Origin: Haliotis cracherodii
Lineage: Eukaryota
Direction of reading: 5' to 3'
NCBI RefSeq assembly: GCF_022045235.1
Contig: NW_027266264.1
Coordinates: 2,976,001 to 3,040,000, forward strand
DNA length: 64,000 nucleotides
Both the position numbers and the translations under genes were made by a program. Shown piece after piece: positions 4,791 through 63,158 of the stretch (its first letter is position 1; each line of letters starts with the position of its first letter). Under the pieces are notes generated by a model that worked only from the letters and a program-made list of their open reading frames with translations, did no database searches and was not told where the DNA came from.

Positions 4791-7700
4791 AATCTCAAGG
4801 AATAGTGTTGGATCCGAGCTCGAGAATCCTTTTTTACAGTGATGATAGAACTGCGGTCATTGGGAAATATCATCTGAAGACGAGAGTGGAAGAATTGATT
4901 GTACGTTCAGATTTGAGTCGACCACACGCCCTTGCAGCTGATACACAGAGAAGGTATGATGATGAGCATGTTTGCCGTTTTACATGATAGTTTATTGATC
5001 TGGTGTAGCAGATAGCATTTGTTTTGAAAAGGAAAAAAGTGTTCGCTCGTGAGAGCGAGTGTAAGTGTTGGTCTTGTATGGGTGTGAATGCGAGAGCGGA
5101 TGTGAGTGTTAGTGTTAGTGTTTGTGTGAGAGCGAGTGTGAGCGTTGGTCTTGTATGGGTGTGAATGTGAGAGTGGGTGCGGGTGCGGGTGTGAGTGTTA
5201 GTGTGAGTGTCAGTGTTAGTGTGAGAGCGTTTATGAGTGTTGGTCTTGTATGGGTGTGAATGTGAGAGTGGGTATGGGTGTGAGTGTTAGTGTGACTGTG
5301 AGTGTTAGTGTTAGTGTGAGAGCGAGTGTTGGTCTTGTATGGGTGTGAATGTGAGAGTGGGTATGGGTGTGAGTGTTAGTGTGAGTGTGAGTGTTAATGT
5401 TAGTGTTAGTTTGAGAGCGAGTGTTGGTCTTGTATTGGTGTGAATGTGAGAGTGGGTGTGGGTGTGAGTGTTAGTGTGAGTGTGAGTGTTAGTGTTAGTT
5501 TGAGAGCGAGTGTGAGTGTTGGTCTTGTATGGATGTGAATGCGAGAGTGGGTGTGGTGTGAGTGTTAGTGTGAGTGTCAGTGTTTGTGTGAGAGCGAGTG
5601 TGAGTGTTGGTCTTGTATGGATGTGAATGTGGGTGTGGGTGTGGGTGTGGGTGTAAGTGTTAGTGTTAGTGTTAGTGTTAGTGTGAGAGCGAGTGTGAGT
5701 GTTGGTCTTGTATGGGTGTGAATGTGAGAGTGGGTGCGGGTGTGAGTGTTAGTGTGAGTGTCAGTGTTAGTGTGAGAGCGTTTGTGAGTGTTGGTACTGT
5801 ATGGGTGTGAATGTGAGAGTGGGTATGGGTGTGAGTGTTAGTGTGACTGTGAGTGTTAGTGTTAGTGTGAGGGCGAGTGTTGGTCTTGTATTGGTGTGAA
5901 TGTGAGAGTGGGTGTGGGTGTGAGTGTTAGTGTGAGTGTGAGTGTTTGTGTGAGAGCGAGTGTGAGTGTTGGTCTTGTATGGATGTGAATGTGGGTATGG
6001 GTGTGAGTGTTAGTGTGAGTGTGAGTGTTAGTGTTAGTTTGAGAGCGAGTGTGAGTGTTGGTCTTGTATGGGTGTGAATGCGAGAGTGGGTGTGGTGTGA
6101 GTGTTAGTGTGAGTGTCAGTGTTTGTGTGAGAGCGAGTGTGAGTGTTGGTCTTGTATGGGTGTGAATGTAAGAGTGGGTGTGAGTGTGAGTGTTAGTGTG
6201 AGAGCGAATGTGAGTGTTGGTCTTGTATGGATGTGAGAGTGGGTGTGGGTGTGAGTGTTAGTGTGAGTGTGAGAGCGAGTGTTGGTCTTGTATGGGTGTG
6301 AATGTGACAGTGGGCGTGAGTGTGAGTGTTAGTGTTAGTTTGAGAACGAGTGTGAGTGTTGGTCTTGTATGGGTGTGAATGCAAGAGTGCGTATGAGTGT
6401 TAGTGTGAGTGTTAGTGTTAGTTTGAGAACGAGTGTGAGTGTTGGTCTTGTATGGGTGTGAATGCAAGAGTGGGTGTGAGTGTTAGTGTGAGTGTCAGTG
6501 TTAGTGTGAGAGCAAGTGTGAGTGTTGGTCTTGTGTGGGTGTGAATGCAAGAGTGGGTGTGAGTGTGAGAGCGAGTTTGAGTGTTGGTCTTGTGTGGGTG
6601 TGAATGCGAGAGTGGGTGTGAGTGTGAGAGCGAGTTTGAGTGTCAGTGATGTGTGAGTGTGGGTGTAAGCGTGAATATGAGCATGTGTGTAAGCGTAAGT
6701 GCGAGTGGGTGTGGTATTGTGAGTTCATTTGTTCGTGTGGGTGATTGAAAGTTCAGACATTTTACGTCCTGTCTCACTGAAATGGAATGGAGCAGGAGCT
6801 TATTTTCTTGTATGTCCGGTCCAAAATGTACAACCTAAATCAAGTTACTGATATTTCTGATTCCCATATAAGCGTGCCCTTATACAAACAGGAAACTCTA
6901 CTGGTCAGACATTGGAAACTCCCCTAGAATCGAAATGGCTGACTACAACGGGAATGACAGAGAAATCATTGTACAGTCCCACCTCATCTGGCCTACATCA
7001 CTGGTGTTGGACAAAACAGGTAAATTGTCACAAAAGTGTTACCCACTCACGAAAAGGCAGGTAACCCTTTTCCAGAAATCAAGCGTACACCGTACGGATA
7101 CATCCCGGATACAACATAAGTAACACGGTTAAATGTAAATTTCTAAATCGTTTTCAAGTTTGTCTGCACGACTTTGGTATGGAGGTATGATTCCGAGAGA
7201 CTGTTCCCTGCACATACGTATTCCCAGTATTCTAGATATGCCATATCATATGGTAAAGGCTGATAGTAGTAACAGTTAACTGTGTTATATAGGAGACAAT
7301 TTGTACTGGGTTGATGAACATGGATCCTTGAATGACGTGATGGCACTAAACCTCTCCACAAGGACTTCCAGATCTATACCGTACACTGGGCGCCGGCGGG
7401 AATTCTTCGATCTTGATGTGTACAACGACACTTTATACTTCATTGACCGGGAGGCAACGTTAGTGATGTCATGAATACTATTTGTGTGTTTATTGGTCTT
7501 GATTACTTTACAATGAAATTGAATTAACAGAGAGTCTTTAAAGAGAAGTATGGTAATATACCTGTTGTGATACTTTTTTTTTTAACAATTAAAATGTGTT
7601 ATTGTGTTCTTTTTTCACTCGAAGAAATATGAATCATACGACTTCTGAAACATTAACACCGTTAAGCATAACAAACAAACAATGAACCAAACGCAAGCAC

Positions 7701-7894
7701 ACGCCAAGGAAAATGAAATCTTACATTGAATGCCGACCTGTCTACTGTTTGTTTTTCAAAGAAATACTTACTGTCCCATGTTTCCAGGTCTGTCTATTTA
7801 TCGATGCCAATAACGGGAGGAGAACTGACACCAACATCAACGCCAGAAGGGATGTCAATGTACAGACACATCTGCGTGTTCCACTACCCACATG
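4791..7894 (+). CDS. YWTD/LDLR class B propeller module 1 (exons 2-5; first propeller exon lies upstream of window)
   Basis: Exons encode SQGIVLDPSSRILFYSD..., KLYWSDIGNSPRIEMADYNG..., DNLYWVDEHG...TLYFID, SVYLSMPITGG...VFHYPH. Window bases 1-40 match the intron start that follows exon 15664-15876. Confidence 0.85.
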
Positions 7895-10194
7895 GTGAAT
7901 ATAATACATTTGTGTGACAGGATTGAATAGAGGGGTGCTACAATGTTGTCTTTACAGGGGTCGGCAAATATACTACCTGTCTGGTTTTGCATTAAACAAT
8001 CTAGAGATAGACTTGTAACACCATGCGGAACTCAGTAGTATTACTGCTTCTTTACATACCTATGTAAGTGCTTGGGTTCTGATCCCTTCGACCGCCTCCG
8101 TGGTCTGGGAGAGAGCGGAAGGCCCGGGGTTCGATTCCCGGCCACGTCTTACCAAAAGACGTTAAAAGATACTTGTCACTTGGTACTTGTTGTTTCCCTG
8201 TCTGACGCTTGGCATAAAGGGGCTAACACAAGAACTGGTCGGCTCGGAGTCATTATACTGTGTCGTTTTGGGTATTTATGTTAAACTGCGGCATGGTATC
8301 TCAGTGAGCTAGCTCTATAAATCGGCATCTGTCCGTACTACAACAAGCAGCCATACACACGCACGCACGCACGCACGCAAGCACGTCGCTATGTAAGTGA
8401 ATATTCCTGGACGCGACGTTGAACCCGATTTCTCCTCACCTCTGATCCTTTTCGGAGTAAAGTGCACGGATTAATTTACATTCTGTGTGTTGGAACTATT
8501 TCAAAGACAATATCGCCATAAATTAATCTTCCATATCTCCACATGTCTGCATGGGGATTCATGGATTGACATGTAAAAGTTCATAAGAGTATATATATAT
8601 ATTCAGTTCTGTAACTTGTAATTTAGAAATTCCACGATGCCCGCCTGGTACCCATGGGAAGGAATGCCAAGTGCCGTGTGGACATTGTCGAGACGATGGG
8701 CCGTGCATGATTGATACTGGACGCTGTCCATCGGGGTGTCAACCAGGGTGGATGGGGAACATGTGCACTGAAGGTAGAACGTATTTCTTGCCAGATGGTC
8801 TTTGTCATATATTATCATTGCTAGCAAAGCTCGTATCATTTGTGTTTCATAATATTATGTAGTGCCTCTTATTTCGTAGCCATTGTATAACCTGGAGTGC
8901 CCAGATGGAAGTCACGTCCCAAGTGGACACTGAAGATAAACACTATTTATCCAATTTAATATGAAACAACCAGTTAAAAGCATTGGTGGCTGTTGATTGT
9001 ACATGTACTGACGTTGAACTAATTCATTATGTACATGTGATATTCTGACTTTTATCCTCATGACGGTGTTCTACATTTGCATGTCCCTTGCTACCCGTGA
9101 GACGAGACAGATAGTAGACAATGTACAGGTACAAACTTTAACGTACTTAATGTCTAATGTTTCAGGGTGTGCAGATGGGTATTTTGGCGTCAACTGCAAT
9201 GATTCTTGTGGCAAATGTAAAGGTGGAGTTGTCTGTGACAAAGCAGATGGACGATGTGCCTCAGGATATGAGACCGGCTGGATTGGGTACAACTGTACTC
9301 AAGGTGAGATTTATGTAAATAGGCATCATCTACAAGCTTCCATCCAAACTTGTAAAAGGGATGAGCTTGAAACGTCGGAAAAATATTCATTTGAAATCAT
9401 CTAATTTTCCTATGAAGCATATATCCTGGTTATCACGCGAGTGTGTTTGGGGATGGTAGAAAGTCAGGATTAGGAATGAACATTGTATTTAGCGAGACTT
9501 GGCGCGGTAAATACATAGTGTTTATTCCTAATACTGGATATGTAGAACATATTATTCTTCTGCTGTCATTACATACCCTTCTCATGTTATCCCACTCATG
9601 TATGCAATTGTTGTTACTGTTCATCCTCCACTTATTATATATATTCTGTACCATGTTCATCATTCAGTCTTGCTTGACAACGGTATAAGGATCTGTACCG
9701 AAACGTCGTCTTCACAGGCATTAAAGAAGTTGTTATCCATAAATTGTGTCTACTTTGACTGTGAGACTTATCGGCAGGATTCGTTACGGTCAAGCATCCC
9801 ATCCTCATATATTACCGACACTGCACTAGCTTGTTTGAATCCTATCATAGCTTCAGATATCAGCAAAAACCTGTGAATTGAAAACGATTTCCTGCCTACA
9901 AACTTTGCAAGGTGTCACTCAAGGCTCTGTCTTAGGACCAATATTGTTAACCCTATATGCACGGTCTCTCAGCAAAATTGGTGACAAGCACGAAATCAAT
10001 CAACACCAGTGTGCTAATGCTAACCAGCTGTATGTTGGTTTCTCACATGACGATGCAGGAAAATGGGTCGTCGTGTTGGGTATTTATGTTAAACTGTGAC
10101 ATGGTTTGTCAGTGAGGTAGCACTATAAATCGGCATCTGTCGGGACTAGAAGAAGCAGCCACACACGCACGCACGCACGCACGCACACTCACAT

Positions 10195-10229
<35 letters not shown>

Positions 10230-13200
10230 ATGTAAGTGAATAATCTTGGACGCGACGTTAAACCCCATTTCACCTCACCTCAGATCCATTTCGGAGTAAA
10301 GATAAGTTTACATTCTGTGTGTTGGTTACTATTTCAAAGACAATATCGCCATACATCAATCTTCCATATCTCCACATGTCTGCATGGGGATTCATGGATT
10401 GACATGTAAAAGTTCATAAGAGTATATATATATATTCAGTTCTGTAACTTGTAATTTAGAAATTCCACGATGCCCGCCTGGTACCCATGGGAAGGAATGC
10501 CAAGTGCCGTGTGGACATTGTCTAGACGATAGGCCGTGCATGATTGATACTGGACGCTGTCCATCCGGGTGTCAACCGGGGTGGATGGGGAACATGTGCA
10601 CTGAAGGTAGAACGTATTTCTTGCCAGATGGTCTTTGTCATATAAACTGAAGTACAAAAAAAAGTACACACCCCACTATTCTGACAGTAAAAGAAGACAG
10701 GGCAAACTTTATTGTGATTGTAATGTTTAATGTCATTGTTGAGTCATTTTCAAACATGTTTAGAATGGATTTAAAGATTTTTGGCCACATAAAACTTTCC
10801 AGTTGACAATAACGTCCATAGGCAGTCACTCATCAAAAATCACACTTGTAGAAATGATGACAGTCCCAGGTATGAAGGCCATGCGAGTGGTCTCAGTACC
10901 TCGTATGACCCCCATTTGAGTTAATGCAAGCCAGGACACGCCTTCTCATGGAAAAGGTCAACCGTCGGATGACGTCATTAGGGATCCGCTGCCACTCTTC
11001 TCGCAGAGCCTGTTCCAGCTGTGGTATGGTGGTTGGTGGCTGTGCACGTCGTCGCAACTGTCTACCGAGATGGTCCCACAGGTGTTCAATGGGTGACAAG
11101 TCCGGAGAGGCAAAAGCTGAATGTTCTGACGGTTCAGGCAGTCCATAGTGAGTCTAGCAGTGTGTGGTCGGGCGTTATCTTGCTGAAAAAGAAACCCCTG
11201 CCTTTGCCTCTGCATGAAGGGGATCATCACCGGCTGTAACACTTGGTCCCTGTACCTCTGGGCTGTCAGGGTCTGGTGGAGAATGACCAAATCCGTCTTC
11301 TGTTCGCCGCAAATGCCTTCCCAAACCATAACGCTGCCTCCGCCAAAAGGATGAACTTGTTGGACACATGCTCCAGCCAGTCGCTCGCCTCTACGTCGGT
11401 AGACTCTCACTCTACCGTCAGCATGGTAGTGGTTGAATCGACTTTCATCGGTAAAGAGGACTCGTGACCAGTCACGACGTTGCCAGCGTCTGACTCTTCT
11501 TGCCCAGCGAAGACGGCTGATACGGTGTTGAGCGGTCAAGGTCATCCCAAGGAATGGTCGATAAGCCCGGATACCGGCAGCTCGTAGTCGTCTCATGACT
11601 GTGTTCCTGCTGATGTGGTGACCTAACGCTGTCGACGCTGTTGATGCCATGGTGAGGAACCTGTTGCGCAGGTGAAATGTGCGTATGTACCGGTCTTCTG
11701 CAGGGGTCGTCACTCTCGGTCTTCCTCTTCTTGGGCGGTCGGATGTCTGGCCAGTCTGGTTGACACGACGAAGGAGTCTGATAATGGTTTGCCTGGTGCA
11801 GCCAAGGGTCCTTGCGATGTGACTGTTCGACGCCCCCACTTGGGACATTCCCACGGCTCTCTCTCACTCCGCTGCTGTTAAACGTGGCATTTGTCTTGTG
11901 TGTTTTTTCATTGAATGTGTAATGAACGATAGAATCCACTGCCTTTTATACTGTTACTACGCACATTGCACGTGCAAATGGAGAAAATTGCCATTTTCAC
12001 AATGTGTGCTTTTGTTGCCTATCATAATGTCAAGGTTACGTTTCTGCGATATGCTCTCAATGGTTTTGTTCATTACATTACGATAGCGCCAAAAATGTAA
12101 CAACATTTTCAACCATATGCGTAATATATGATATTTTAGGGGTGTGTACTTTCTTTTGTACTTCAGTTTATTATCATTGCTAGCAAAACTCGTATCATTT
12201 GTGTTTCATTATATTATGTAGTGCCTCTTATTTCGTAGCCATTGTATAACCTGGAGTGCCCAGATGGAAGTCACGTCCCAAGTGGACACTGAAGATAAAC
12301 ACTATTTATCCAATTTAATATGAAACAACCAGTTAAAAGCATTGGTGGCTGTTGATTGTACATGTACTGACGTTGAACTAATTCATTATGTACATGTGAT
12401 ATTCTGACTTTTATCCTCATGACGGTGTTCTACATTTGCATGTCCCTTGCTACCCGTGAGACGAGACATATAGTAGACAATGTACAGGTACAAACTTTGA
12501 CGTTCTTAATGTCTAATGTTTCAGGGTGTGCAGATGGGTATTTTGGCGTCAACTGCAATGATTCTTGTGGCAAATGTAAAGGTGGAGTTGTCTGTGACAA
12601 AGCAGATGGACGATGTGCCTCAGGATGTGAGACCGGCTGGATTGGGTACAACTGTACTCAAGGTGAGATTTATGTAAATAGGCATCATCTACAAGCTTCC
12701 ATCCAAACTTGTAAAAGGAATGAGCTTGAAACGTCGGACAAAGTATTCATTTGAAATCATCTAATTTTCCTATGAAGCTTATATACAGGTTATCACGAGA
12801 GTGTTTGGGGATGGTAGAAAGCCAGTATTAGGAATGAACATTGTATTTAGCGAGACTTGGCGAGGTAAATACATAGTGTTTAGAACATATTCTCCTTCTG
12901 CTGTCATTACATACCCTTCTCATGTTATCCCACTCATGTATGCAATTGTTGTTACTGTTCATCCTCCACTTATTATATATATTCTGTACCATGTTCATCA
13001 TTCAGTCTTGCTTGACAACGGTATAAGGATCTATACCGAAACGTTGTCTTCACAGTCATTATAGAAGTTGTTATCCATAAATTGTGTCTACTTTGACTGT
13101 GAGACTTATCGGCAGGATTTGATACGATCAAGCATCCAATCCTCATATATCACCGACACTGCACTAGCTTGTTTGAATCCTATCATAGCTTCAGATATCA

Positions 13201-16200
13201 GCAAAAACCTGTGAATTTAAGACGATTTCCTGCCTACAAACTTTGCAAGGTGTCACTAAAGGCTCTGTCTTAGGACCAATACTGTTTACCCCATATGCAC
13301 GGTCTCTCAGCTAAATTGGTGACAAGCACGAAATCAATCAACACCAGTGTGCTAATGCTAACCAGCTGTATGTTGGTTTCTCACATGACGATGCTGGAAA
13401 TTGTGTCGTCCAGATCGAAAGCTGTAATGGATGGCACCACACTGCTGAAACGTAATCGGGACAAAACAGAATTTATTGTGATAGGTCCCAAACGTCAAAT
13501 CCATGAATGTACAGCTGTTCAACAACGTGTTATAGGTGATGCTGTCATTGTTCATTCTGGTAACATGAAGAATCTGAGCGTAGTACCAGACCCGAACCAT
13601 CATGCAACCAGGGTGTGCCAAACAGCTAATTATCAAGAAATATTGGAAAATTTCGTCCATATCTAGCAAAACCCTATTCCGTGGAACTTCTATTGCCTCT
13701 TATGATATCCAGAACTGACTATTGTAACAGCCCCCTTGTGTATGACTTCAAGCCACCATGAATGCAGCTGCCAGAATTATATCCAAATCTTCCAAGTTTG
13801 ATCATGTACCCCAACATCTAATGGCGCTCCGCTGGCTGCCAGATGCAGCACTTGTCACCCGTAAGATCCTCATCCATGCCTACAAGCCTGCCTATCTCAG
13901 TTAACTCTTACTGATTTACTCTCCTCAACCAACTCTCTGATCTTAACAACAACAGTTTCCCGTGTTTAAACCTGTACTTTCGGAAATAGAACATATGCTG
14001 CATCGTTTCTGTGGAACAATCTGACGGAAAATCTGCTCCCACTATTTCCTCTTTCAAATCTCAGCTTAAGACATATCTGTTTCAACAGTCTTATAGTTGC
14101 TAAAGCGCACAGAGCATATGTGTTTTGAGAATTGTTGCCCTACACAGATGCATGTATTATTATAGAAACAACTTAAACGTTTATCACTTTGGTGAAACCC
14201 ACGATCATGGTATGGTGCCGATAAACCAAGAAACATAATCAGGGCGAATCTGGGATACGAAGCCACGTTTATAGGATTCTGGCAAGCCTAAAGGATGCAA
14301 AATGGACTTTGGGTGTACTTCTGACATTACTGCAGGAACATGAAAACATATATGTAGTTGTTTCATGACAGTGGGGTGTTCCGTGTTAAGAAAGCGGGGA
14401 TTTATGTTTCTTCAAGGCATCAAATTAACAATTTTGATTAAACTATGTGTTAATGTAGCCATTTCATTATGAATTTAAATCAATGAGGTCAACCTTTACT
14501 TATACTGTAAATATGGTTCACGTGAACCCTTTCTACAAACATATATCTAATTGGAGGATAGTTGGTCTAGTGTCTTAAATCTGTAAAGGATCCTGAGCAG
14601 AAGATGAGCTGAATACCCTTTCGCTATTGTCAGTTTGCTAACATTTAATAGACATCAATTTCCATATAAGTCCAACCTGCTGACGTCTTGAAAGGAGTCA
14701 TTGAACAGGAAAACATAAACTTTTTGCCGTAGTATGACTGCGACTACTCATATGTATGTTATTTGGGTATGATCAATTACTTTGGCGCCGATTACGTTGC
14801 ATTTTTCTTTGGTAGATCTACTTCCAAGACAGTATTCCCATGTAGTAATCACGTAATAAACTCTGCATTGGGATTCATTGATTGACAATTATTAAAGTAT
14901 CGTATTTCCATTACTTGTTTTTTTAGAAATTCCAGTTTGCCCGCCTGGTACCCATGGGAAGGAATGCCAAGTGCTGTGTGGACATTGTCGTGATGATGGG
15001 CCGTGCATGAGTGATACCGGACGCTGTCCATCCGGGTGTCAACCGGGGTGGATGGGGAACATGTGCACTGAAGGTAGAACGTATTCCTTGCCAGATGGAC
15101 TTTGTCATATGTCATTATTGTATATTCCCTTTTAAATCCTTTTGGTCCAACTCTAGAAGTACATCATATTATGCCTCAAAGTTATCAATCAGAGAGCAGA
15201 ACTACTGACCCCACATGAGCCCGTATACCGTCAGTAAAAATCCAAGATGGTTGTTACATTACTGCAGTTGTTTAATGTACAGCCTTCAAATAACGAACCC
15301 AGTGCTGGCTTTCTTTTCGTGATTCAAAAGTACTGAATAACTAAACAGCTTTTGGGTGATGATGTAAGACGAACCTGCTGTCATATTTTAAATGGGTTTC
15401 AGTGTATTTTACCACATTACTCTGGTTGTTTAATATACAGCCTTTGAATAACGAACCCGGTGCTGGCTTGTTTTTTGTTATTCGAAAAACGAATAACGAA
15501 TAACGAACCTGCATCTCACTTCAGGCCCCTGCTGTTTTGCACGCCTTGGTCAGAACCCCTGCGTTTATTACATACAAGGCTGGAACCCTACACTGAAACT
15601 GTCACATTTAACAAGCGAATTGTGTAGGAATAGTTTGAAATGGATTCTTACTTTCTTTCACAGTTGAAGTAATCGTCCTTATCACCGACCACAACGGCTA
15701 CATCTACAAGATGGATGCAAACAGCCAGGGCATCTTATACCACGACCAACAAGGAACAGAAGATATTGCCTATGATCCAGTTGAAGAACAAATCTATTGG
15801 TCCAATCTTGACACCCATTCTGTCAGCAGATTGAACCTCGATGGTGGAAATTACATGAAACTTTTCGACGTCCAAAGTAAGAATAATTTCATCAGCTACG
15901 GCATGCACAACCGGCTTGTTACTACGGACATTGTTATACTGGACATTTTTATACTGGACACTGTTATTCTGGACATTGTTATAAAGGACATTCTTATACA
16001 GGACATTGTTATACTGGACATTGTTATACTAGACATTGTTATACTGGATATTGTTATACCGGACATTGTTATACTGGACATTGTTATACTAGACATTGTT
16101 ATACTGGATATTGTTATCCTGGACATTGGTATACTGGACATTGTTATACCGGACATTGTTATACTGGATATTGTTATACCGGACATTGTTACACTGGACA

Positions 16201-19200
16201 TTGTTATACCGGACATTGTTATCCTGGACAGTGGTACACTGGACATTGTTATACTGGACATTGTTATACCGGACATTTGTATACCGGACATTGTTATACC
16301 GGATATTGTTATTCCGGACATTGTTAATCTGGACATTGTAATACCGGACATTGTTATACCGGACATTGTTATATATAGCTGGACATTGGCATACTGGACA
16401 TTGGTATAGGGACATTGTAATACTGGACATTGTTATACTGGCTATTGTTAAAATGGACACTGGTATACTGGCCATTGTTATACCGGACACTGGTAAACTG
16501 GACATTGGTATACCGGACACTGGTATACTGGACATTGTTATACCGGACATTGTTAAACCAGACATTGTTATCCTGGACAGTGGTATACTGGACATTGTTA
16601 TACTGGACATTGTTATACCGGACATTTGTATACCGGACATTGTTATACCGGATATTGTTATTCCGGACATTGTTATCCTGGACATTGTAATACCGGACAT
16701 TGTTATACCGGACATTGGTATATCGGACATTGTTAATGTGGACATTGTAATACCGGACATTGTTATACCGGACATTGTTATACTGGACATTGTCATACTT
16801 GACATTGGTATAGGGACATTGTAGTACTGGACATTGTTATACTGGCGATTGTTATAATGGACACTGGTATACTGGAAATTGTTATACCGGACATTGTTAT
16901 ACTGGCCATTGTTATACCGGACACTGGTAAACCGGACACTGGTATACTGGACATTGTTATACTGGACATTGTTATACTGGACATTGCTATACCGGACATT
17001 GTTATACTGGACATTGTTTTACTTGACATTGCTATACCGGACATTGTTTCATCGGACATTGTTGTGACGGACATTGTTAAACTGGACAATGTTATGCTGG
17101 ACATTGTTAAACTGGACAATGTTATGCTGGACATTGTCATACTGGACATTGTTAATCTGGAAATTGTTATACCGGACATTGTTATACCGGACATTGGTAT
17201 ACTGGCCATTGGCATACTGGACATTGGTATATGGACATTGTAATACCGGACATTGTAATACTGGCCATTGTTATACCGGACACTGGTAAACTGGACATTG
17301 GTATACTGGATATTGTTATACTGGACATTTTTATCCTGGACATTATATTATACCGGACATTGTTACTTTAGATGAGTACAGTGGGTAGCATATCGTCGTG
17401 TTTATCAGCCGACGCCAGCGAAATACTATGACACATGGTGTTATGATAATACACATATAATAAGTAACCTAAGTAACCTATGCAATATTGTACAACCAAT
17501 GTGACCAAATACTACACAGGCCGCCGTAATATAGCTGGGATATTGCTGAGTGCGGGGTTAAACAACAAACAAACAACAAATCAAACGTACACAGAGAAGG
17601 AATGAGAGTGTTTGTACTCACTGAAGAAACTAGCTGGTCCTGGCTACTCATTACTCATCGTGTCAAATGAAGACAGTCGTGTCGTTGTCTCTGTTGTCAC
17701 ATGATAGAGACATCGCGCCAGAAACAGGGCTGGTGTTGGGGTCGGTCCTCAGATACACAAAATGGGGTATATTGGCATATTGATTCTGCTTACAACAAAT
17801 GTTTTCTTTTGCAGAATCTCAAGGAATAGTGTTGGATCCGAGGTCTAGGATCCTTTTTTACAGCGATGATAGAACTGCGGTAATTGGGAAATATCATCTG
17901 AAGACGAGAGTGGAAGAAGTGATTGTACGTTCAGATTTGAGTCGACCACACGCCCTTGCAGCTGATACACAGAGAAGGTATGATGATGAGCATGTTTGCC
18001 GTTTTATATGATAGCTGGAAAAGTAGATACCATTTGTTTTGAAAAGAACCAAAGTGTTTCTGTGGTTGTTGGTGTCAGTGTGAGTGTTGGTCTTGGTGTT
18101 AGTGTTATTGGTAGTGTGACACTAAGTGTGAGTGGTAGTGTGAGTTTGACAGTGAGTTTAAATGGTGGGGTGAGTGTGAGTTTAAGTATAAGAGTAGTGT
18201 GAGTTTAAGTGGTAGTGTTACAGTGAGTGTGAGTGGTAGTGTGACAGTGAGTGTGAGTGGTAGTGTGACAGTGAATGTGAGGGTGACACTGAGTGTTAGT
18301 GTGAGTGTGACACCGTGTGTGAGTGGTAGTGTGACAGTGAGTGTGAGAGGTAGTGTGACAGTGAGTGTGAGTGTGACACCGAGTGGGAGTGGTAGTGTGA
18401 CAGTGAGTGTGAGAGGTAGTGTGACAGTGAGTGTGAGTTGAAGTGTGACAGTGTGTGTGAGTGGAAGTGTGACAGTGAGTGTGAGTGTGACACCGAGTGC
18501 GAGTGGTAGTGTGCCAGTGAGTGGAAGTGTGACAGTGAGTGTGAGGGGAAGTGTGACAGTGAGTGTGAGTGGAAGTGTGACAGTGAGTGTGAGTGTGACA
18601 CCGAGTGCGAGTGGTAGTACGACAATGAGTGTGAGTGGTAGTGTGACACTGAGTGTGAGTGTGAGTGTGACACCGAGTGCGAGTGGTAGTGTGACAATGA
18701 GTGACAGAGGTAGTGTGACACTGATAGCATTTGTTTTGAAAAGAACCAAAGTGTTTCTGTGGTTGTTTGTGTCAGTGTGAGTGAGTAAGTTTAAATGGTG
18801 GTGTGAGTGTGAGTTTAAGTATACGAGTAGTGTGAGTTTATGTGGTAGTGTTACAGTGAGTGTGAGGGGTAGTGTGACAGTGAGTGTGAGAGGTAGTGTG
18901 ACAGTGAGTGTGAGTGGAAGTGTGACAGTGAGTGTGAGTGTGACACCGAGTGCGAGTGGTACTGTGAGTGTGAGTGTGACATTTAGTGTGAGTGGAAGTG
19001 TGACAGTGAGTGTGAGTGGTAGTGTGACACCGAGAGTGAGTGTGAGTGTGACACCGAGTGAGTGTGATAGTGTGACAGTGAGTGTTAGTGGTAGTGTGAC
19101 AGTGAGTGTCAGGGGTAGTGTGACAGTGAGTGTGAGTGGTAGTGTGACAGTTACTGGCAGTGTGACACTGAGTGTGAGTGTGAGTGTGACACTGAGTGTA

Positions 19201-22200
19201 AGAGGTAGGGTGACAGTGAGTGTGACTGTAGTGTGACAGTGAGTGGTAGTGTGACACTGAGTGTGAGTGTGACAGTAGTGTGACACCGAGTTCGAGTGCT
19301 AGTGTGACACTGAGTGTGAGAGTGTGCGTGTGAGTGTAACAGTAGTGTGACACTGAGTGTGAGTGTGAATGTGACACTGAGTCCGAGAGGTAGTGTGACA
19401 GTGAGTGGAAGTGTGACAGTGAGTGTGAGGGGAAGTGTGACAGTGAGTGTGAGTGGTAGTGTGACAGTGAGTGTGAGTGGTAGTGTGACAGTGAGTGTGA
19501 GTGGTAGTGTGACAGTGAGTGGTAGTGTGACAGTGAGTGTGAGTGGAAGTTTGAGTGTGAGTGTGAGTGTTAATGTGAGAGTGACTGTGAGTGTTTTCCC
19601 TTTTCGCGAGCACCTGGTGTCATCGGTGATTTTCAGTGATCCATTCATATACCTTTCACCGCTATTGTGCCTTGTACGCCCAATAAAGTCAGTATCGTCG
19701 GATAATCGAGACTGATTATTCTCTGGTGTTGATGTTTAATGTTATACAAACAGGAAACTCTACTGGTCAGACATTGGAAACTCTCCCAGAATCGAGGTGG
19801 CTGACTACAACGGGAATGACAGAGAAACCCTTGTACAGTCCCACCTCATCTGGCCTACATCACTGGTGTTAGACAAAACAGGTAAATTGTCACACAATCT
19901 CCAGATGTGTCAGGGAAGGAGTCGTGTAAAGCACAGCACGAAAAGGCAGGCATCCCGCATACAACATAAGTAACACGGTTCAATTTAAATTTCTAAACCT
20001 TTTCCAAGTTTGTCTGTCTTGTTGTATACTTAACTGAACATAATGCACGACTTTGGTATGGAGGTATGATTCCGAGAGACTGTTCCCTGCACATACGTAT
20101 TCCCAGTATTCTAGATATGCCATATCATATGGTAAAGGCTGATAGTAGTAACAGTTAACTGTGTTATATAGGAGACAATTTGTACTGGGTTGATGAACAT
20201 GGATCCTTGAATGACGTGATGGCACTAAACCTCTCCACAAGGACTTCCAGATCTATACTGTACACTGGGCGCCGGCGGGAATTCTTCGATCTTGATGTGT
20301 ACAACGACACTTTATACTTCATTGACCGGGAGGAAACGTTAGTGATGTCATGAATACTATTTGTGTGTTTATTGGTCTTGATTACTTTACAATGAAATTG
20401 AATTAACAGAGAGTCTTTAAAGAGAAGTATGGTAATATACCTGTTGTGATACAGCTTTTTAAACAATTAAAATGTGTTATTGTGTTCTTTTTTCACTCGA
20501 AGAAATATGAATCATACGACATCTGAAACAAAAAACGAACCAAACGCAAGCATACGCCAAGGAGAATAGAATCTTACATTGAATACCGACCTATCTACTG
20601 TTTGTTTTTCAAATAAATACTTACTGTCCCATATTTCCAGGTCTATCTATTTATCGATGCCAATAACGGGAGGAGAACTGACACCAACATCAACGCCAGA
20701 AGGGATGTCAATGTACAGACACATCCGCGTGTTCCACTACCCACATGGTGAATATAATATATTTGTGTGACAGGATTGAATAGAGGGGTGCTACAATGTT
20801 GTCTTTACAGGGGTCGGCAAATATACTACCTGTCTGGTTTTTGTATTCGAAAATCTTGAAGTGAGTGAGATAGTTGCTTTAACTGCTTTAAACTGTATTT
20901 CCGTTATATCACGACGTGTCAGCTTGATGTGGGTAAAACACAGAAGTGATACAGGTGTTACAAGTTGACCACATTGGTACATGATATGGTGCTGATAAAC
21001 CAGGAACCATGATCAGAGAGAATCCGGGATGCGGACCCACGATCATAGGATTCTGGCCTGCCCAAGGGCCGCCAAAGCAAATTCTGACTGGGCCATATGT
21101 ACTCGGGACATTTTTGTAGGAATATGTATATAGTAGTTACATGATTGATAGTGGGGTGTTCGGCGTTAAGACCGCGGGGAGGTTGTTGTAACGATTTTCA
21201 TTAAATTCTGCATTAACATAACCATTTCGTTATGAATTATTATCTTTGAGGTCAATATGTAAGGCATCTAGACCAAAAGTTGAGGTGAACATCCTTTTGC
21301 TGTTGTCAAGTTGTTAACATTTAAAAGAAATAAGTCCAACCTGCTGACCACTCGAAAGGAGTCGTTAAGCAGGAAGACATACAGTTGTAGCTCAATGCGG
21401 TATCACTACCACTACCCCAGTGTATGTGCTTTGGACCTGTTCCTTGTCGGAATAAAGTGCGCCGATGTATTTACATTTTTGCGTGTTAGAACCATTTCAA
21501 AGACAATATCCCCATGAATTAATTTATTAACTCTACACGTCTACATTGGGATTCTTGGATTAAAATTTAAGGGATCGTAAGAGTAAGAGTAGTTTTGGAG
21601 TAACAGTTCCATAACTTGTATTTTAGAAATTCCAGGATGCCCGCCTGGTACCCATGGGAAGGAATGCCAAGTGCCGTGTGGACATTGTCGAGACGATAGG
21701 CCGTGCATGAGTGATACCGGACGCTGTCCATCCGGGTGTCAACCAGGGTGGATGGGGAATATGTGCACTGAGGGTAGAACGTATTACTTGCCAGATGGAC
21801 TTTGTCATACATTGTCAGTGTTGTATATGCCCCTAAAATCCTTTTGGCCCAATCCTAGAAGCACGTCATGTGCTGTGACCGTAGGACCTATAATGAACTG
21901 CTGTGAACTCACTGAAAAAAGATGTTTAAACGAAGACAAAACACATTCAATGCACATATCACCAATACTAAGAGTGAATATCTGACCAAATACCGAATGG
22001 TATGTACTCTTTAATCCTTTAGGTCCACTCCCAGAAGTACATCATATGTCGTGACCATACAACAAACAGTAAACAAACAAACAGTTATGAACGTACTGAC
22101 AAGAGAGACAAAACACAACTCACCTATACTTAGTGTGAAAATCTAACCGTATACCGAATCGTATCCACAGATTATGATAAGAGATCTAAACTTGGTCAAA

Positions 22201-25200: not shown

Positions 25201-26085
25201 ACTGGGTGTCTTTGATTGACGGAGCTTGTACTTCAGATTTCAACCTCATTCTCGTCGTGGTCTGTGTTTGTGCTGCTGCTGCCGTGCTTCTAGTCACGGC
25301 TTTGGGTATCTACACATACAGGTGAATATAGCCAAAACCTTTCCATCATCATAAGAAATCTCTGCTAAAAGCACAGTCCATTTTACGATTCCGACCATGT
25401 CATATGCACGTGTTTATGAATTACTATCAAGTTCATGTCTGAAAACATCTAGTCAGTTAGCAGAAAGACACTATGCTCATATGGTACACGTTTGTCAACT
25501 GTTTGGAATTGAATGATAAAGCTTCTAATTGTACTAATGGATATGTCTCGGTAGTGTCTCCCTTTCAAACGTTACAAACTGGAGGTTGGTCTTTGTGGTG
25601 ACTATAATGCTATCTTGTTTGGTTGATATCGAACATTTGCCCAGGAACATTTCGCTCAATAGTATTATTGGGGGGAATGCCCTGACGTTGTTGAATACAC
25701 TGGAATAGCTCATGTTTATGATTGAAAGATTGAGTAGCCTGCTATTGTGTCTGGCACCATGATATGGTCTCACGGTTTTGAAAGGCCAAACACAAACCTT
25801 TTTGGGATGGGTAATGCTTCGTTAGAAAGATTCTGGGATCAGATAGTGTTTCTTCATGGGAAGTATTTGGTCCTTTAAATTGAGGAGTACTGAGAAGGTA
25901 AATGTGTCCCTGAGACAAAAGTAATGATTGTGTTAAAGTTGTGTATAATTAAACACCACTGGCTACAACATAATGATTAATTATTTATATTAATAAATAA
26001 TTTGATTTCTTTCATCTTCTGCAGACTCAGGAAATCATCAATACCCAATACAGGTGAGGATACAGTAGCATACCGCGTCATGTAG
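4791..26085 (+). CDS. Receptor A (5'-partial): 2x YWTD beta-propeller + up to 10 MEGF10/SREC-type EGF repeats + TM + short tail
   Basis: GT-AG, phase-compatible exons. Propeller 1: 4791-4953, 6892-7019, 7293-7458, 7788-7894. EGF: 8627-8773, 9166-9303, 10460-10606, 12525-12662, 14927-15073. Propeller 2: 15664-15876, 17815-17977, 19754-19881, 20172-20337, 20641-20747. EGF: 21627-21773, 22357-22494, 23018-23155, 24102-24239, 24454-24618. TM: 25237-25321 (LILVVVCVCAAAAVLLVTALGIY). Tail: 26025-26085. Blade motifs LITD, IYWSN, LFYSD, LYWSD, LYWVD, LYFID. Whether the two modules form one transcript is inferred. Confidence 0.75.
5045..6740 (+). repeat. GT-rich compound minisatellite
   Basis: Recurring GTGTTGGTCTTGTATGGGTGTGAATG core with variable (GTGTTA/GTGTGA)n. 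Confidence 0.95.
8089..8443 (+). mobile_element. tRNA-derived SINE with Meta-like central domain
   Basis: B box GGTTCGATTCC; ACCAAAAGACGTTAAAAGAT core; CACCT tail; flanked by a TCTGATCC duplication; partial copy at 10063-10282. Confidence 0.8.
8896..8935 (+). pseudogene. Dead EGF pseudoexon (duplicate at 12255-12294)
   Basis: Homolog of exon 23018-23155 with acceptor AG>GG, a 15-bp deletion between two GTCACG, and truncation. Confidence 0.7.
9590..9765 (+). mobile_element. Penelope-like terminal fragment with minimal hammerhead-like motif
   Basis: TTGACAA-C-GGTATA-aggatc-TGTACC-GAAAC-GTC followed by ATTAAAGAAGTTGTTATCC; related copies at 12930-13105 and 46870-47030. Confidence 0.55.
9850..10062 (+). 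mobile_element. Truncated duplicate of the L2/CR1 RT fragment
   Basis: ORF 9878-10099 contains QGVTQGSVLGPILLTLY; near-identical to 13210-13400. Confidence 0.75.
10645..12168 (-). mobile_element. Tc1-family transposon, defective
   Basis: 30-bp TIRs (AACTGAAGTACAAAA.AAAGTACACACCCC, 1 mismatch); TA TSD. Transposase 11890-10893 has TGA at codon 9 and a frameshifting deletion at the WP..SPDL motif. Confidence 0.95.
12930..13105 (+). mobile_element. Penelope-like terminal fragment (duplicate)
   Basis: Duplicate of 9590-9765 with a perfect GGTATA/TATACC stem. Confidence 0.55.
13200..14165 (+). mobile_element. Degenerate L2/CR1-type LINE, RT and 3' end
   Basis: GV..GSVLGPILF, N.DKTEFIVIGPK and later RT-thumb fragments; ends FKSQLKTYLF. 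Truncated duplicate at ~9850-10062. Confidence 0.75.
15664..20747 (+). CDS. YWTD/LDLR class B propeller module 2 (5 exons, all six blades)
   Basis: Its last four exons (163, 128, 166, 107 bp) equal the module 1 exons in length with near-identical sequence; the extra first exon is 213 bp; canonical splice sites. Confidence 0.87.
15918..17370 (+). repeat. 15-bp minisatellite (GGACATTGTTATACT/C)n, expanded paralogous copy
   Basis: Same unit and same intron position as 36-450, about 1.45 kb long. Confidence 0.95.
18060..19595 (+). repeat. GT-rich minisatellite (~24-bp GTGTGACAGTGAGTGTGAGTGGTA)
   Basis: Direct inspection; source of spurious VTLPLTL/SVTV ORFs. Confidence 0.95.
24664..24925 (+). 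mobile_element. ~260-bp SINE-like retroposon
   Basis: Same family motifs. Confidence 0.82.
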
Positions 26086-39900: not shown

Positions 39901-42112
39901 CGCGTCATAAAGATCACCAGACAACAGCCTTCATTATTGATGGATCAGCATTAATGTGGGCCGTTCGCAGGCCAGCATGGGGAAGAGTCTTAGATTTGTT
40001 GCTAGGTATCAAAGCTAACATTACATCAAAATTGAAAGTTGGAGATGTGTACTTGGAATTTGACCGTTACAAGGAGTACAGGATGTCACAAGGCAGGGAC
40101 GAACAACAAATGCCAGCAGTGGAGTTCATCACGTGAAGGTATCAACAATATTACCTCCCCAGAAGGTTGTCCTCACAGTCAAAGAACACAAACTAGTCAT
40201 TACCTTAGAGAATAATGTCCCACGTTAAGTGTGTAATGGTATCATATCCAGCAGACATGACATTGCCACAACGCAATGAGAAGCTGACAACCTAATTGTC
40301 CAACAGGCAATTTAAAGTAGCAGCAGATGGACTCCTTCCAGTGACTGTTCTGTCAGATGATACTGACGTATTCCTCCTGCTGTTACATTTCTACTACTTG
40401 CAGAATATCAAGGTACAGGTATTCATGGATATTGGAGCTTCTGTTTCCAAAAATGAACCTATAGTTCTAGGCCTACTTGCAGCACATTAATTGAGAGGTT
40501 GTGATACAACAGCATCATGTTTTGAGATTGGTAAAGGAATGTCTTAAAGGTTCGAGGGTTCGATTCCCAACATGGGTACAATGCGTGAAACCCATTTCTG
40601 GTGTCCCTTGCCGTGATATTGCTGGAATATTGCTAAAAGCGGCGTAAAATAATACTCACTCACTCACTGAAAAGATGGTCACTCTCTCTCACGGCTTGGA
40701 GATCCTACAGCAGATTTACTCGTAATCCCTTTACAAGCAGCTCAATTCATGGCGAACCAAACTGCACATCTGTCACAGAAGTTCGCTTACAAGTTTGCGC
40801 TACCAAAACTGGAAGAGGCTGTTCTCAAATTCCCAAGCTCTCAGCTTTAACGCCAACAGATGAAGCCTTCTTGGAAAACGTGAAGCGGGCACATCAAACA
40901 AGTGTGCGATGGTTCCAACCAAGTTTGATTTCCATAAAGAAATTACATCAAAACACCTACTATCAGTTACTGTACCTGAAAGTGTTACCCTAGCAAAACA
41001 ATATATGTTGAAACTTGTCAAGCGCACATGTGGCAGTGATAATACACCGTCAAAAGACAAATCGATGGGGTTACAGTCGCGCCCAGTTACCTTGTACAGT
41101 ATTCTGTGCCTGTGTATGCTTCAACCCACTCACTAACCGTGTTATTGATGATGAGGAAGAAACCTAAACTGGCTGTATGTATGTGAAGAAATCCTTGAAC
41201 CAATATTCACCTTTGAAAGCTCAGAATAATCAGTAATCCTAAAAGAATCACGTATTTGTTGATTTTTATAATATTTCGGCAGCCATTTTGCCAGTTATCT
41301 TGCTTATTTAGGACCAAATTATTATAGATGACAGTGTGTCATCAGTTAGTTGCATAATCTAGAATACACCATTAAACAAATCCAGCAATAAAAAAAATAT
41401 ATCCCCTTATTCTGGGTTGGGGTAAAATATTCATTTCTCTGCAGGACTATTGTCGATATCATTGAGGTAGTCGAGCTGTAAAAGCGTCCGTACGTCACGC
41501 CGAAGACCTTGGTTCGATTCCTCACATTGATACCATGTGTGAAGCCCATTTCTGGTGTTACCCATCGTGATATTGCTTGAATAGTGTTGAAAGAGACGTA
41601 CAGCTATACCCACTGTCGATATTTGTAGTATTTTTCATGTGAATAGGTCTCGATTGAAACGAAATGACATAAAACGTCCATTGGACTTCGTAAACAAATA
41701 TTTAATCAACACTCACACAATCAAAATTGCGTTTGTTTGTTGCCAAAGGCCGCAAACTATCTCCATATACCACTTCCTTTGTATTCCGTGTTTTTCAAGG
41801 TCACACTCCTGTCCCCGTGGTTGCTGGCGTATGTGGAGCGGCAGTTGCTGTAGGCGTGTTGGCAGTCGTCCTCATCTGCAGAAGAAGGTATACAAGTATA
41901 CAATTACATGGTACAGTTACAAAAACAAAACAAAAATCTTCGTCAAAATTAACTACGACATATTTCCATATATGTCTGTGTTTTTCCGCTCCAGCCGCCA
42001 GACTGCCTCTCCGCTGCCCCCGAAACAAGGAGATCGCTCGGTCATGTACAGGATTATGGAGGACATCCAAGACGCGAATACTTCCGGCGAAGGCCAACTA
42101 ATACAAGTTTGA
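28459..42112 (+). CDS. Receptor B: signal peptide + YWTD propeller + 4 MEGF10-type EGF + TM + cytoplasmic tail (~539 aa)
   Basis: Exons 28459-28522 ([22 protein letters not shown]), 29719-29946, 30266-30428, 31239-31375, 33354-33516, 34065-34171, EGF 34710-34847, 35272-35409, 36293-36430, 37303-37440, TM 41800-41887, tail 41995-42112. They sum to 1620 nt, in frame, with no internal stop. Confidence 0.85.
28888..29157 (-). mobile_element. ~260-bp SINE-like retroposon (TGTCGTAA.AGGCGACT hairpin, (AAAC/AACC)n tail)
   Basis: High-copy family; other copies at 1535-1771, 3983-4181, 24664-24925, 33765-33880, 36902-37181, 57128-57305, 57501-57732, 58121-58381. Confidence 0.85.
31376..32520 (+). repeat. 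30-bp minisatellite starting at a splice donor, degenerating 3'
   Basis: AGTTTCACAGTACTAGACGACAAGGGTAAT alternating with a ...TTGGACGATAAGAGTTAT variant. Confidence 0.92.
34205..34284 (+). pseudogene. Degenerate EGF pseudoexon 3' half
   Basis: [19 protein letters not shown] followed by the same downstream intron as the intact EGF exons. Confidence 0.6.
34285..35595 (+). repeat. 562-bp tandem duplication carrying an EGF exon
   Basis: Exons 34710 and 35272 are 562 bp apart with near-identical introns; a third copy lies at 36077-36450. Confidence 0.9.
35859..36028 (+). mobile_element. Short tRNA-derived SINE, (ACTC)n tail
   Basis: A/B boxes; TSD TATTGTTGA; other copies at 40550-40668, 41461-41612, 45760-45910(-), 49537-49647(-), 50691-50855(-), 62235-62400. 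Confidence 0.85.
36902..37181 (+). mobile_element. ~260-bp SINE-like retroposon
   Basis: Same family motifs; (AAAC)n tail. Confidence 0.82.
37890..41449 (+). mobile_element. Academ (AcademX-like) DNA transposon relic with XPG/PIN-like nuclease fragments
   Basis: Termini TAGTCCGGCAGAGA and (reverse complement) TAGTCCTGCAGAGA, with subterminal inverted ACTGATGAC..GTCATCT. Broken ORFs: [62 protein letters not shown]. No TSD seen. Confidence 0.7.
41461..41612 (+). mobile_element. Short tRNA-derived SINE, diverged
   Basis: CGTCACGCCGAAGACC..GGTTCGATTCC..TGTGTGAAGCCCATTTCTGGTG. Confidence 0.75.
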
Positions 42113-63089: not shown

Positions 63090-63158
63090 CTGAAACATGT
63101 GACACATCAAGTGTATGACATGTACCATGTTGTAGAAACTAGCACATTTACATAGTAC

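What the first reader, a model, noticed from the sequence alone, without database searches (positions are those of the whole stretch)
4791..42112. Tandem family of hybrid receptors: LRP-type propeller on a Draper/MEGF10-type EGF stalk with a YxxM tail
Seen: both genes splice into propeller(s) + 8-Cys EGF repeats + TM + short Tyr tail, with no LDLa repeats, no EMI domain and no NPxY in the reconstructed exons. Known: LRPs cap each propeller with a 6-Cys EGF and use LDLa/NPxY, while CED-1/Draper/MEGF10 and SREC carry 8-Cys EGF arrays without a propeller. Inference: exon shuffling through phase-1 junctions placed a propeller as a ligand-binding head on an engulfment-receptor stalk. This makes a candidate lineage-specific innate-immune, phagocytic or allorecognition receptor family that automated pipelines would probably label LRP-like or MEGF10-like.
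Basis: partly seen in the sequence, partly recalled or inferred. Interest (0 to 1): 0.72.

Follow-up and report, generated by a model that had tools for sequence, protein, structure and literature searches.

The report
Abalone propeller-tipped scavenger-type receptor family
Two neighbouring abalone genes encode cell-surface proteins with an LDL-receptor-type propeller joined directly to a scavenger-receptor-type stalk; they belong to an unnamed abalone family that likely arose by one exon swap and likely binds protein ligands, signalling or taking them up through a short tyrosine tail.

Summary
The architecture is real. Gene B (28459-42112, 572 aa, not 539) and gene A (starts upstream of the window, 1070 aa, two propellers) have open frames and all-canonical splice sites. 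Each reads signal peptide, six-bladed YWTD propeller, 8-Cys SREC/PEAR1-type EGF repeats, TM and a VxYxxM tail, with no LDLa, EMI or NPxY. RefSeq fuses A and B into one 'MEGF10'. The genome holds 12 more propeller-to-8-Cys junctions, and all 19 such proteins found are from Haliotis. Their propellers form one branch and share a five-exon cassette with abalone genes capped by a 6-Cys EGF, which supports a single phase-1 exon swap. Corrections: YxxM is not family-wide (H. asinina gene A ends YxxV; paralogues carry ITIM-like or no motifs), and the propellers are not hypervariable, so allorecognition is unsupported. An immune role is plausible by analogy with snail scavenger-class-F-like receptors, but untested. 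Verdict: a new head on a known mollusc receptor scaffold. The scan's notes held nothing similar.

The parts
4791..7894 (+). Gene A propeller 1, exons 3-6 (4791-4953, 6892-7019, 7293-7458, 7788-7894); signal-peptide exon and exon 2 lie upstream of the window (L001:9244-9313, 9783-9995)
   Evidence: H. rufescens model P0232 uses the same exons
8627..15073 (+). Gene A first stalk: five EGF exons (8627-8773, 9166-9303 with 7 Cys, 10460-10606, 12525-12662, 14927-15073), all phase 1-1
15664..20747 (+). Gene A propeller 2 (15664-15876, 17815-17977, 19754-19881, 20172-20337, 20641-20747); internal duplicate of propeller 1, 14 amino-acid differences; no similarity to the signal-peptide exon in the intron before it
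   Evidence: a second propeller also in H. rufescens P0232, single in H. rubra P0152 and H. asinina P0155
21627..24618 (+). Gene A second stalk: five 8-Cys EGF exons (21627-21773, 22357-22494, 23018-23155, 24102-24239, 24454-24618)
25237..25321 (+). Gene A transmembrane exon
   Evidence: in RefSeq P0001
26025..26085 (+). Gene A tail exon ending VAYRVM-stop
28459..28522 (+). Gene B start codon and predicted signal-peptide exon
   Evidence: same contig depth as exon 2 in 4 of 4 runs
29719..34171 (+). Gene B six-bladed YWTD propeller, five exons (29719-29946, 30266-30428, 31239-31375, 33354-33516, 34065-34171)
   Evidence: orthologue model folds as 24 strands in six blades and matches LRP6/LRP4/nidogen
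34710..37440 (+). Gene B stalk: three identical-protein 8-Cys EGF exons (34710-34847, 35272-35409, 36293-36430) and a fourth (37303-37440)
37771..37869 (+).
   Evidence: contig arithmetic
41800..41887 (+). Gene B transmembrane exon
41995..42112 (+). Gene B tail exon with VMYRIM and stop
   Evidence: covered by spliced contigs

Best explanation
Genes A and B encode single-pass surface proteins in which a YWTD propeller is joined directly to 8-Cys SREC/PEAR1-type EGF repeats; they likely arose from one exon swap in the abalone lineage and likely act as ligand-binding receptors that signal or internalise through a tail tyrosine. Shown: exon structure, open frames, domain order, spliced transcripts for B, and a family of about 14 genes. 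Strongly inferred: a phase-1 exon swap put 8-Cys EGF exons where related mollusc propellers have a 6-Cys EGF cap, once, followed by duplication. Inferred: the propeller top face binds a protein ligand, the stalk spaces it from the membrane, and clustering lets a Src-family kinase phosphorylate VxYxxM, which recruits an SH2 protein (PI3K as in PEAR1, or an SHP-type phosphatase for the ITIM-like paralogues) and can double as a YxxPhi uptake signal. A scavenger or immune-surveillance role is the most likely setting (about 0.4), untested.
For: Open frames and 34 of 34 canonical introns. Contigs in runs X1, X4 and X6 splice B's propeller exons and end 30, 30 and 31 nt past exon 6, as expected where a 31-mer contig enters the repeated EGF exon; an X1 contig of 725 nt fits EGF4 + short exon + TM + tail with exactly the 23 nt expected. 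Orthologous models in three other Haliotis species join the same exons. AlphaFold model: six-bladed propeller, block pLDDT mostly 77-95; Foldseek rmsd 2.3-2.7 A over about 260 residues to LRP6, LRP4, LDLR and nidogen. 12 of 32 fetched regions hold propeller directly followed by 8-Cys EGF, 15 junctions with the window's 3. Same intron pattern (phases 1,1,2,1,2,1) in 6-Cys-capped abalone genes on C4, C19, C78 and C67. 8-Cys-linked propellers are one side of a branch, SH-aLRT 90 and 94. Tails: YxxPhi 13 vs 4.4 shuffled (0 of 5000), ITIM 5 vs 0.75 (p=0.001) in 9 representatives. PEAR1 signals through a single YxxM and PI3K (PMC12557594, passage). Snail receptors with the same stalk class and swapped heads lie under a schistosome-resistance peak (PMC13712769, section 20).
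Against: No ligand, tissue or challenge data. The exon 6-to-EGF joint was not displayed directly. No RNA was laid on gene A. YxxM is not enriched (p=0.08) and is YxxV in H. asinina A. No sign of diversifying selection. Pfam finds no EGF family above threshold in 7 of 7 family proteins scanned, so the stalk type rests on my own profile and BLAST. A tree that joins a cueball-like propeller to the family is not rejected (p-AU 0.29). Tree supports are SH-aLRT from quick searches, and the rows were picked with a profile built from the family.
Confidence: 0.55

Rival explanations
1. Cargo or sorting receptors in the manner of cueball or LDLR: the propeller binds cargo and the tail tyrosine is only a YxxPhi signal for clathrin adaptors, with no kinase signalling and no immune role.
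For: Atlas feature search ranks arthropod cueball first for two family members (0.92-0.93). The cueball tail recruits GGA (PMC3127973, passages). All A/B tails fit YxxPhi, including the YxxV form. Purifying selection.
Against: The -2 Val/Ser and ITIM-like spacing are kept across orthologues (SxYxxL in P0112, P0233, P0234), which AP-2 would not need (recalled). Two members end in a hydrophobic stretch with no tail (P0005, P0092). The cueball-like P0297 has 6-Cys EGFs and no 8-Cys hit.
Confidence: 0.25
2. Polymorphic allorecognition or pathogen-recognition receptors under an arms race.
For: About 14 genes, mostly on C1; recent exon and propeller duplications in A and B; mixed activating-like, inhibitory-like and tail-less ends.
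Against: B propeller 97% identical to H. rufescens and 70-72% to H. asinina/H. rubra, no lower than its first EGF (72-74%); pN/pS about 0.38 between A propellers; top loops 0.65 vs bottom loops 0.66 identity; one-to-one orthologues kept across species.
Confidence: 0.1
3. Wnt/BMP-pathway modulators: a free LRP5/6-like propeller that sequesters NxI-motif ligands such as Dkk or sclerostin-like proteins.
For: Fold matches LRP6 and LRP4 propellers. WPN/PN is kept in 4 of 11 aligned members.
Against: A and B have Thr where LRP4/6 have the WPN asparagine; LRP6 N185 contacts the NxI Asn (PMC7585440, passage); that this column is N185 rests on recalled numbering. Nearest propellers are mollusc orphan ones, not LRP5/6-like ones.
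Confidence: 0.05
4. One three-pass fusion protein A+B as RefSeq predicts, or gene A as an assembly artefact.
For: RefSeq fuses A and B in 3 of 4 species; in H. asinina they are isoforms under one name. could not show B's 5' end.
Against: The three fusions use three different joints; A has its own stop and B its own ATG and signal peptide; H. asinina has complete separate forms; the double propeller recurs in H. rufescens.
Confidence: 0.05

Closest known systems
[quoted passage not shown]
   Same: Signal peptide, SREC/Tie2-type EGF stalk, one TM, mostly short tail, clustered expansion, exchangeable heads
   Different: Described heads are fucolectin or none; here the head is a YWTD propeller; no disease association known here
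SCARF1/SREC-I and PEAR1 (Jedi-1); CED-1/Draper/MEGF10
   Same: Same EGF repeat type (B stalk 41% to SCARF1, E 3e-31; 38% to PEAR1, E 9e-25); PEAR1 also has a single YxxM
   Different: No EMI, NPxY or ITAM; propeller head; 28-45-residue tails; 4-5 repeats per unit
Cueball (Drosophila CG12086)
   Same: Single propeller + EGFs + TM without LDLa; top Atlas hit
   Different: The cueball-like sequence in hand has 6-Cys EGFs after a long linker; its propeller falls outside the family in the best tree, though sisterhood is not rejected
LDLR/LRP family, pro-EGF, nidogen G3
   Same: Six-bladed YWTD propeller fold
   Different: No LDLa, no 6-Cys EGF cap, no NPxY; internal introns differ from the multi-propeller LRP-like gene at C34:25.57 Mb

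Membership tests
LDLR/LRP family | YWTD six-bladed propeller | tested here: met
   PF00058 over cut-off; model and Foldseek
LDLR/LRP family | LDLa (class A) repeats | tested here: not met
   No PF00057; no LDLa profile hit in the window region
LDLR/LRP family | 6-Cys EGF capping each propeller | tested here: not met
   8-Cys exon follows directly at 3 of 3 window propellers
LDLR/LRP family | NPxY in tail | tested here: not met
   None in the window tails or in 18 family proteins' C-terminal parts
CED-1/Draper/MEGF10/PEAR1 | N-terminal EMI domain | tested here: not met
   Propeller starts right after the signal peptide; no EMI in Pfam
CED-1/Draper/MEGF10/PEAR1 | Array of 8-Cys EGF-like repeats | tested here: met
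   Own profile hits 11 repeats in each of 2 PEAR1 proteins; BLAST E 9e-25 and 5e-19; Pfam EGF_laminin/EGF_PEAR1L not reached
CED-1/Draper/MEGF10/PEAR1 | NPxY and ITAM/YxxL tail (PMC8092387, passages) | tested here: not met
   Single VxYxxM only
CED-1/Draper/MEGF10/PEAR1 | Drives engulfment | not testable with these tools
   Needs a cell assay
Scavenger receptor class F-like (SREC-type, mollusc) | Signal peptide + SREC-type EGF stalk + one TM + short tail | tested here: met
   41% to SCARF1 over 160 aa, 43-46% to Haliotis draper/PEAR1-like stalks
Scavenger receptor class F-like (SREC-type, mollusc) | Binds modified self or microbial ligands | not testable with these tools
   No binding data
Cueball | Propeller + 6-Cys EGFs + TM | tested here: not met
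   EGF type differs from unnamed cueball-like P0297; its label as cueball is my reading
Cueball | Orthologous propeller | tested here: inconclusive
   Best tree places P0297 elsewhere; AU p=0.29 does not reject sisterhood

The most novel reading that the evidence does not exclude
An abalone-specific paired-receptor system that uses the LRP propeller as its recognition head: about 14 genes with divergent propellers on SREC-type stalks, wired to activating (YxxM), inhibitory (ITIM-like) or tail-less decoy outputs, serving haemocyte self/non-self or damaged-self recognition.
Probability: 0.2. Interest if true: 0.72.

Novelty: new variant of a known kind. Interest (0 to 1): 0.46.

Why it matters
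It gives a clean, traceable case of a receptor family born by one exon swap, with the likely donor cassette still in the same genome. It also exposes about 14 abalone surface receptors hidden under at least six unrelated automatic names and fused gene models. If they act in haemocytes they are candidate resistance genes in a farmed and partly endangered genus, parallel to the snail scavenger-class-F-like cluster. Head swapping on this stalk is already known in molluscs, which limits the surprise.

Tried and rejected
No run was on record as RNA; the runs used are 'RNA?' and count only because their contigs skip introns. Abalone repeat contigs flooded the joint table, so no exon joint is listed there; the direct view of exon 6-to-EGF and any read evidence for gene A remain open. 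The word-indexed search with the family alignment missed 10 of its own 11 rows, so it is weak evidence on taxonomic range; one search added only Haliotis members. Only 150 of 6748 hits were seen. Paper searches listed nothing that describes this architecture; the library lacks most subscription journals. The H. laevigata shell proteome (PMC6003135) has no EGF, LDL or propeller term in its main text; supplements not read. No hypervariable top face found (face labels from my reading of the model's strands). The careful tree did not finish (quick tree used). Propeller-EGF packing is not judged: pTM 0.51. Scan notes: 2 unrelated findings, none by words. Large LRP loci on C7, C8, C10, C11 and C67:40.6 Mb were not fetched. 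P0092, P0005 (no tail) and near-duplicates were left out of the tail statistic.
Full report
Place and identity. The window is G000:C1:2976001-3040000. A search with B's first propeller exon returned one protein, RefSeq XP_071080721.1, 1316 aa, named 'MEGF10', Haliotis cracherodii. It fuses most of gene A to gene B and so holds two membrane spans.

Anatomy. Gene B has 13 exons from 28459 to 42112, 12 of 12 introns GT-AG, and 572 codons without a stop. It reads signal peptide, five propeller exons, four 8-Cys EGF exons, a 6-Cys exon, TM, and a tail with VMYRIM. Gene A has 23 exons, two of them upstream of the window, 22 of 22 GT-AG introns and 1070 codons. It reads signal peptide, propeller, five EGFs, propeller, five EGFs, TM, and a tail ending VAYRVM-stop. 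Every intron flanking a propeller or EGF exon is phase 1. Pfam finds PF00058 but no LDLa, EMI or EGF family over threshold. An AlphaFold model of the H. asinina B orthologue shows 24 strands in six blades with the EGFs starting straight after. Foldseek matches LRP6, LRP4, ApoER2, LDLR and nidogen propellers at 2.3-2.7 A over about 260 residues. By BLAST the stalk is nearest to other Haliotis draper/PEAR1-like proteins (43-46%), then SCARF1 (41%), PEAR1 (33-38%) and MEGF6 (35%).

Expression. No run was on record as RNA, but contigs from 4 runs of 4 coded organisms lie on B's exons. In X1 one 1056-nt contig holds exons 2, 3 and 5 in abutting pieces, with room for exon 4 (137 nt) and exon 6 (107 nt). 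It then ends 30 nt later; X4 gives 30 and X6 31. That is what a 31-mer assembler does on entering a repeated sequence, here the triplicated EGF exon; a retained intron would not predict it. A second X1 contig of 725 nt leaves exactly the 23 nt expected if it holds EGF4, the 99-nt exon, TM and tail. So the propeller-EGF joint is inferred, not displayed. Gene A has no read evidence here. It rests on the intact frame, pN/pS about 0.38 between its two propellers (15 nonsynonymous and 11 synonymous changes) and orthologous models: single-propeller in H. asinina and H. rubra, double in H. rufescens. The doubling is therefore recent and shared by two species, not an assembly error. The three RefSeq A+B fusions use three different joints, which points to annotation error.

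Family. A full HMMER search gave 6748 hits, of which 150 were seen. Of 297 proteins fetched in all, 204 have a propeller hit and 19 have both propeller and 8-Cys EGF; all 19 are named Haliotis, under the names MEGF10, MEGF11, LRP1-like, LRP4-like, LRP6-like, pro-EGF-like, nidogen-like or uncharacterised. These searches favour near relatives, so other gastropods are not excluded. In the own genome PF00058 gave 119 matches. Of 32 regions examined around them, 12 show a propeller followed directly by 8-Cys EGFs: 15 junctions, about 14 genes, 10 regions on C1 plus C20 and C34.

Origin. Predicted splice sites (best or second candidate of a simple score) give the same five-exon propeller, phases 1,1,2,1,2,1, in the family and in genes on C4, C19, C78 (3 genes) and C67 whose propeller is followed by a 6-Cys EGF on its own phase-1 exon; two uncapped propellers on C5 share the pattern, while the multi-propeller gene at C34:25.57 Mb has other internal introns. 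The first 8-Cys exon has a phase-1 acceptor in 12 of 12 junctions displayed. In a 110-row tree the 31 rows linked to 8-Cys EGF are one side of a branch (SH-aLRT 90). In a 35-row tree rooted on VLDLR-like rows they form a clade (94), sister to a Gigantopelta protein and an abalone C78 gene, both 6-Cys-capped (93). Related mollusc propellers sit beside SRCR domains, so the cassette is mobile. The stalk exon is abundant (1896 candidates, 150 scored). One phase-1 swap followed by duplication is the simplest reading.

Tails and mechanism. A and B orthologues keep V-x-Y-[RK]-x-[MV]: YxxM in H. cracherodii and H. rufescens A and in all four B tails, but YRTV in H. asinina A. Across 9 representative tails YxxPhi (13 vs 4.4 shuffled, 0 of 5000) and ITIM-type motifs (5 vs 0.75, p=0.001) are enriched and YxxM is not (2 vs 0.48, p=0.08). 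Two members end in a hydrophobic stretch without a tail. PEAR1 signals by a single YxxM through Src and PI3K (PMC12557594, passage). CED-1, Draper and MEGF10 use EMI, NPxY and ITAM/YxxL (PMC8092387, passages), which are missing here. I infer ligand binding on the propeller face, spacing by the stalk, and tyrosine-based output. A and B lack the WPN asparagine, likely the N185 that binds NxI ligands in LRP6 (PMC7585440, passage; numbering recalled), so their ligands probably differ.

Against an arms race. The B propeller is 97% identical to H. rufescens and 70-72% to H. asinina and H. rubra, like its first EGF. Top and bottom loops are equally conserved (42 of 65 and 33 of 50).

Known relatives. 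Biomphalaria has a cluster of SREC-type single-pass receptors with no head or a fucolectin head, some with phosphatase tails, under a schistosome-resistance peak (PMC13712769, passages and section 20). The abalone family is that scaffold with a new head. Cueball is the nearest Atlas look-alike and is described as membrane-bound, EGF-like with LDLR repeats (PMC4321038, passages) and as a GGA cargo (PMC3127973, passages); PMC13168543 (passages) added little. An unnamed cueball-like protein has 6-Cys EGFs and falls outside the family, though not significantly. Seven paper searches listed no description of this architecture.

Verdict. Real, expressed for B, apparently undescribed in the library searched, and a new variant of a known kind. 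Architecture and origin are well supported; function is inferred. Interest 0.46.

Noticed in passing
window 10961-11863 (-): Tc1/mariner-type transposase ORF in an intron of gene A (PF01498); a similar ORF at 52993-54048 (-).
   Followed up: partly
window 31376-31900: A 30-nt minisatellite after B exon 4 repeats the exon's donor context; 5 of 6 further donor-like copies are in frame and could add repeats to the propeller. Contig lengths fit use of the first donor.
   Followed up: partly
window 34196-34283: Decayed EGF-like exon remnant between B exon 6 and the first EGF exon.
   Followed up: partly
window 47892-50516 and 61435-63106 (-): Two similar ligand-gated ion channel (nicotinic receptor-like) genes with few, long exons (PF02932 weak hit; ORFs).
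   Followed up: no
G000:C1:57.375 Mb (P0092) and H. asinina P0005: Family members ending in a hydrophobic stretch with no cytoplasmic tail, possibly GPI-anchored decoys; P0005 has an independent propeller-EGF doubling.
   Followed up: no
G000:C5:41.386-41.404 Mb; proteins P0116, P0143: SRCR + propeller proteins without EGF caps in Physella and probably abalone: the same propeller cassette on another partner.
   Followed up: partly
G000:C56:36.9-37.7 Mb and C1:18.977-18.996 Mb: Dense arrays of the same 8-Cys EGF exon, probably large SREC-type receptor clusters.
   Followed up: no
window 34710-36430: Three EGF exons of B encode identical peptides and their introns are 95-97% alike; the H. rufescens model has one fewer, so stalk length changes fast.
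   Followed up: partly
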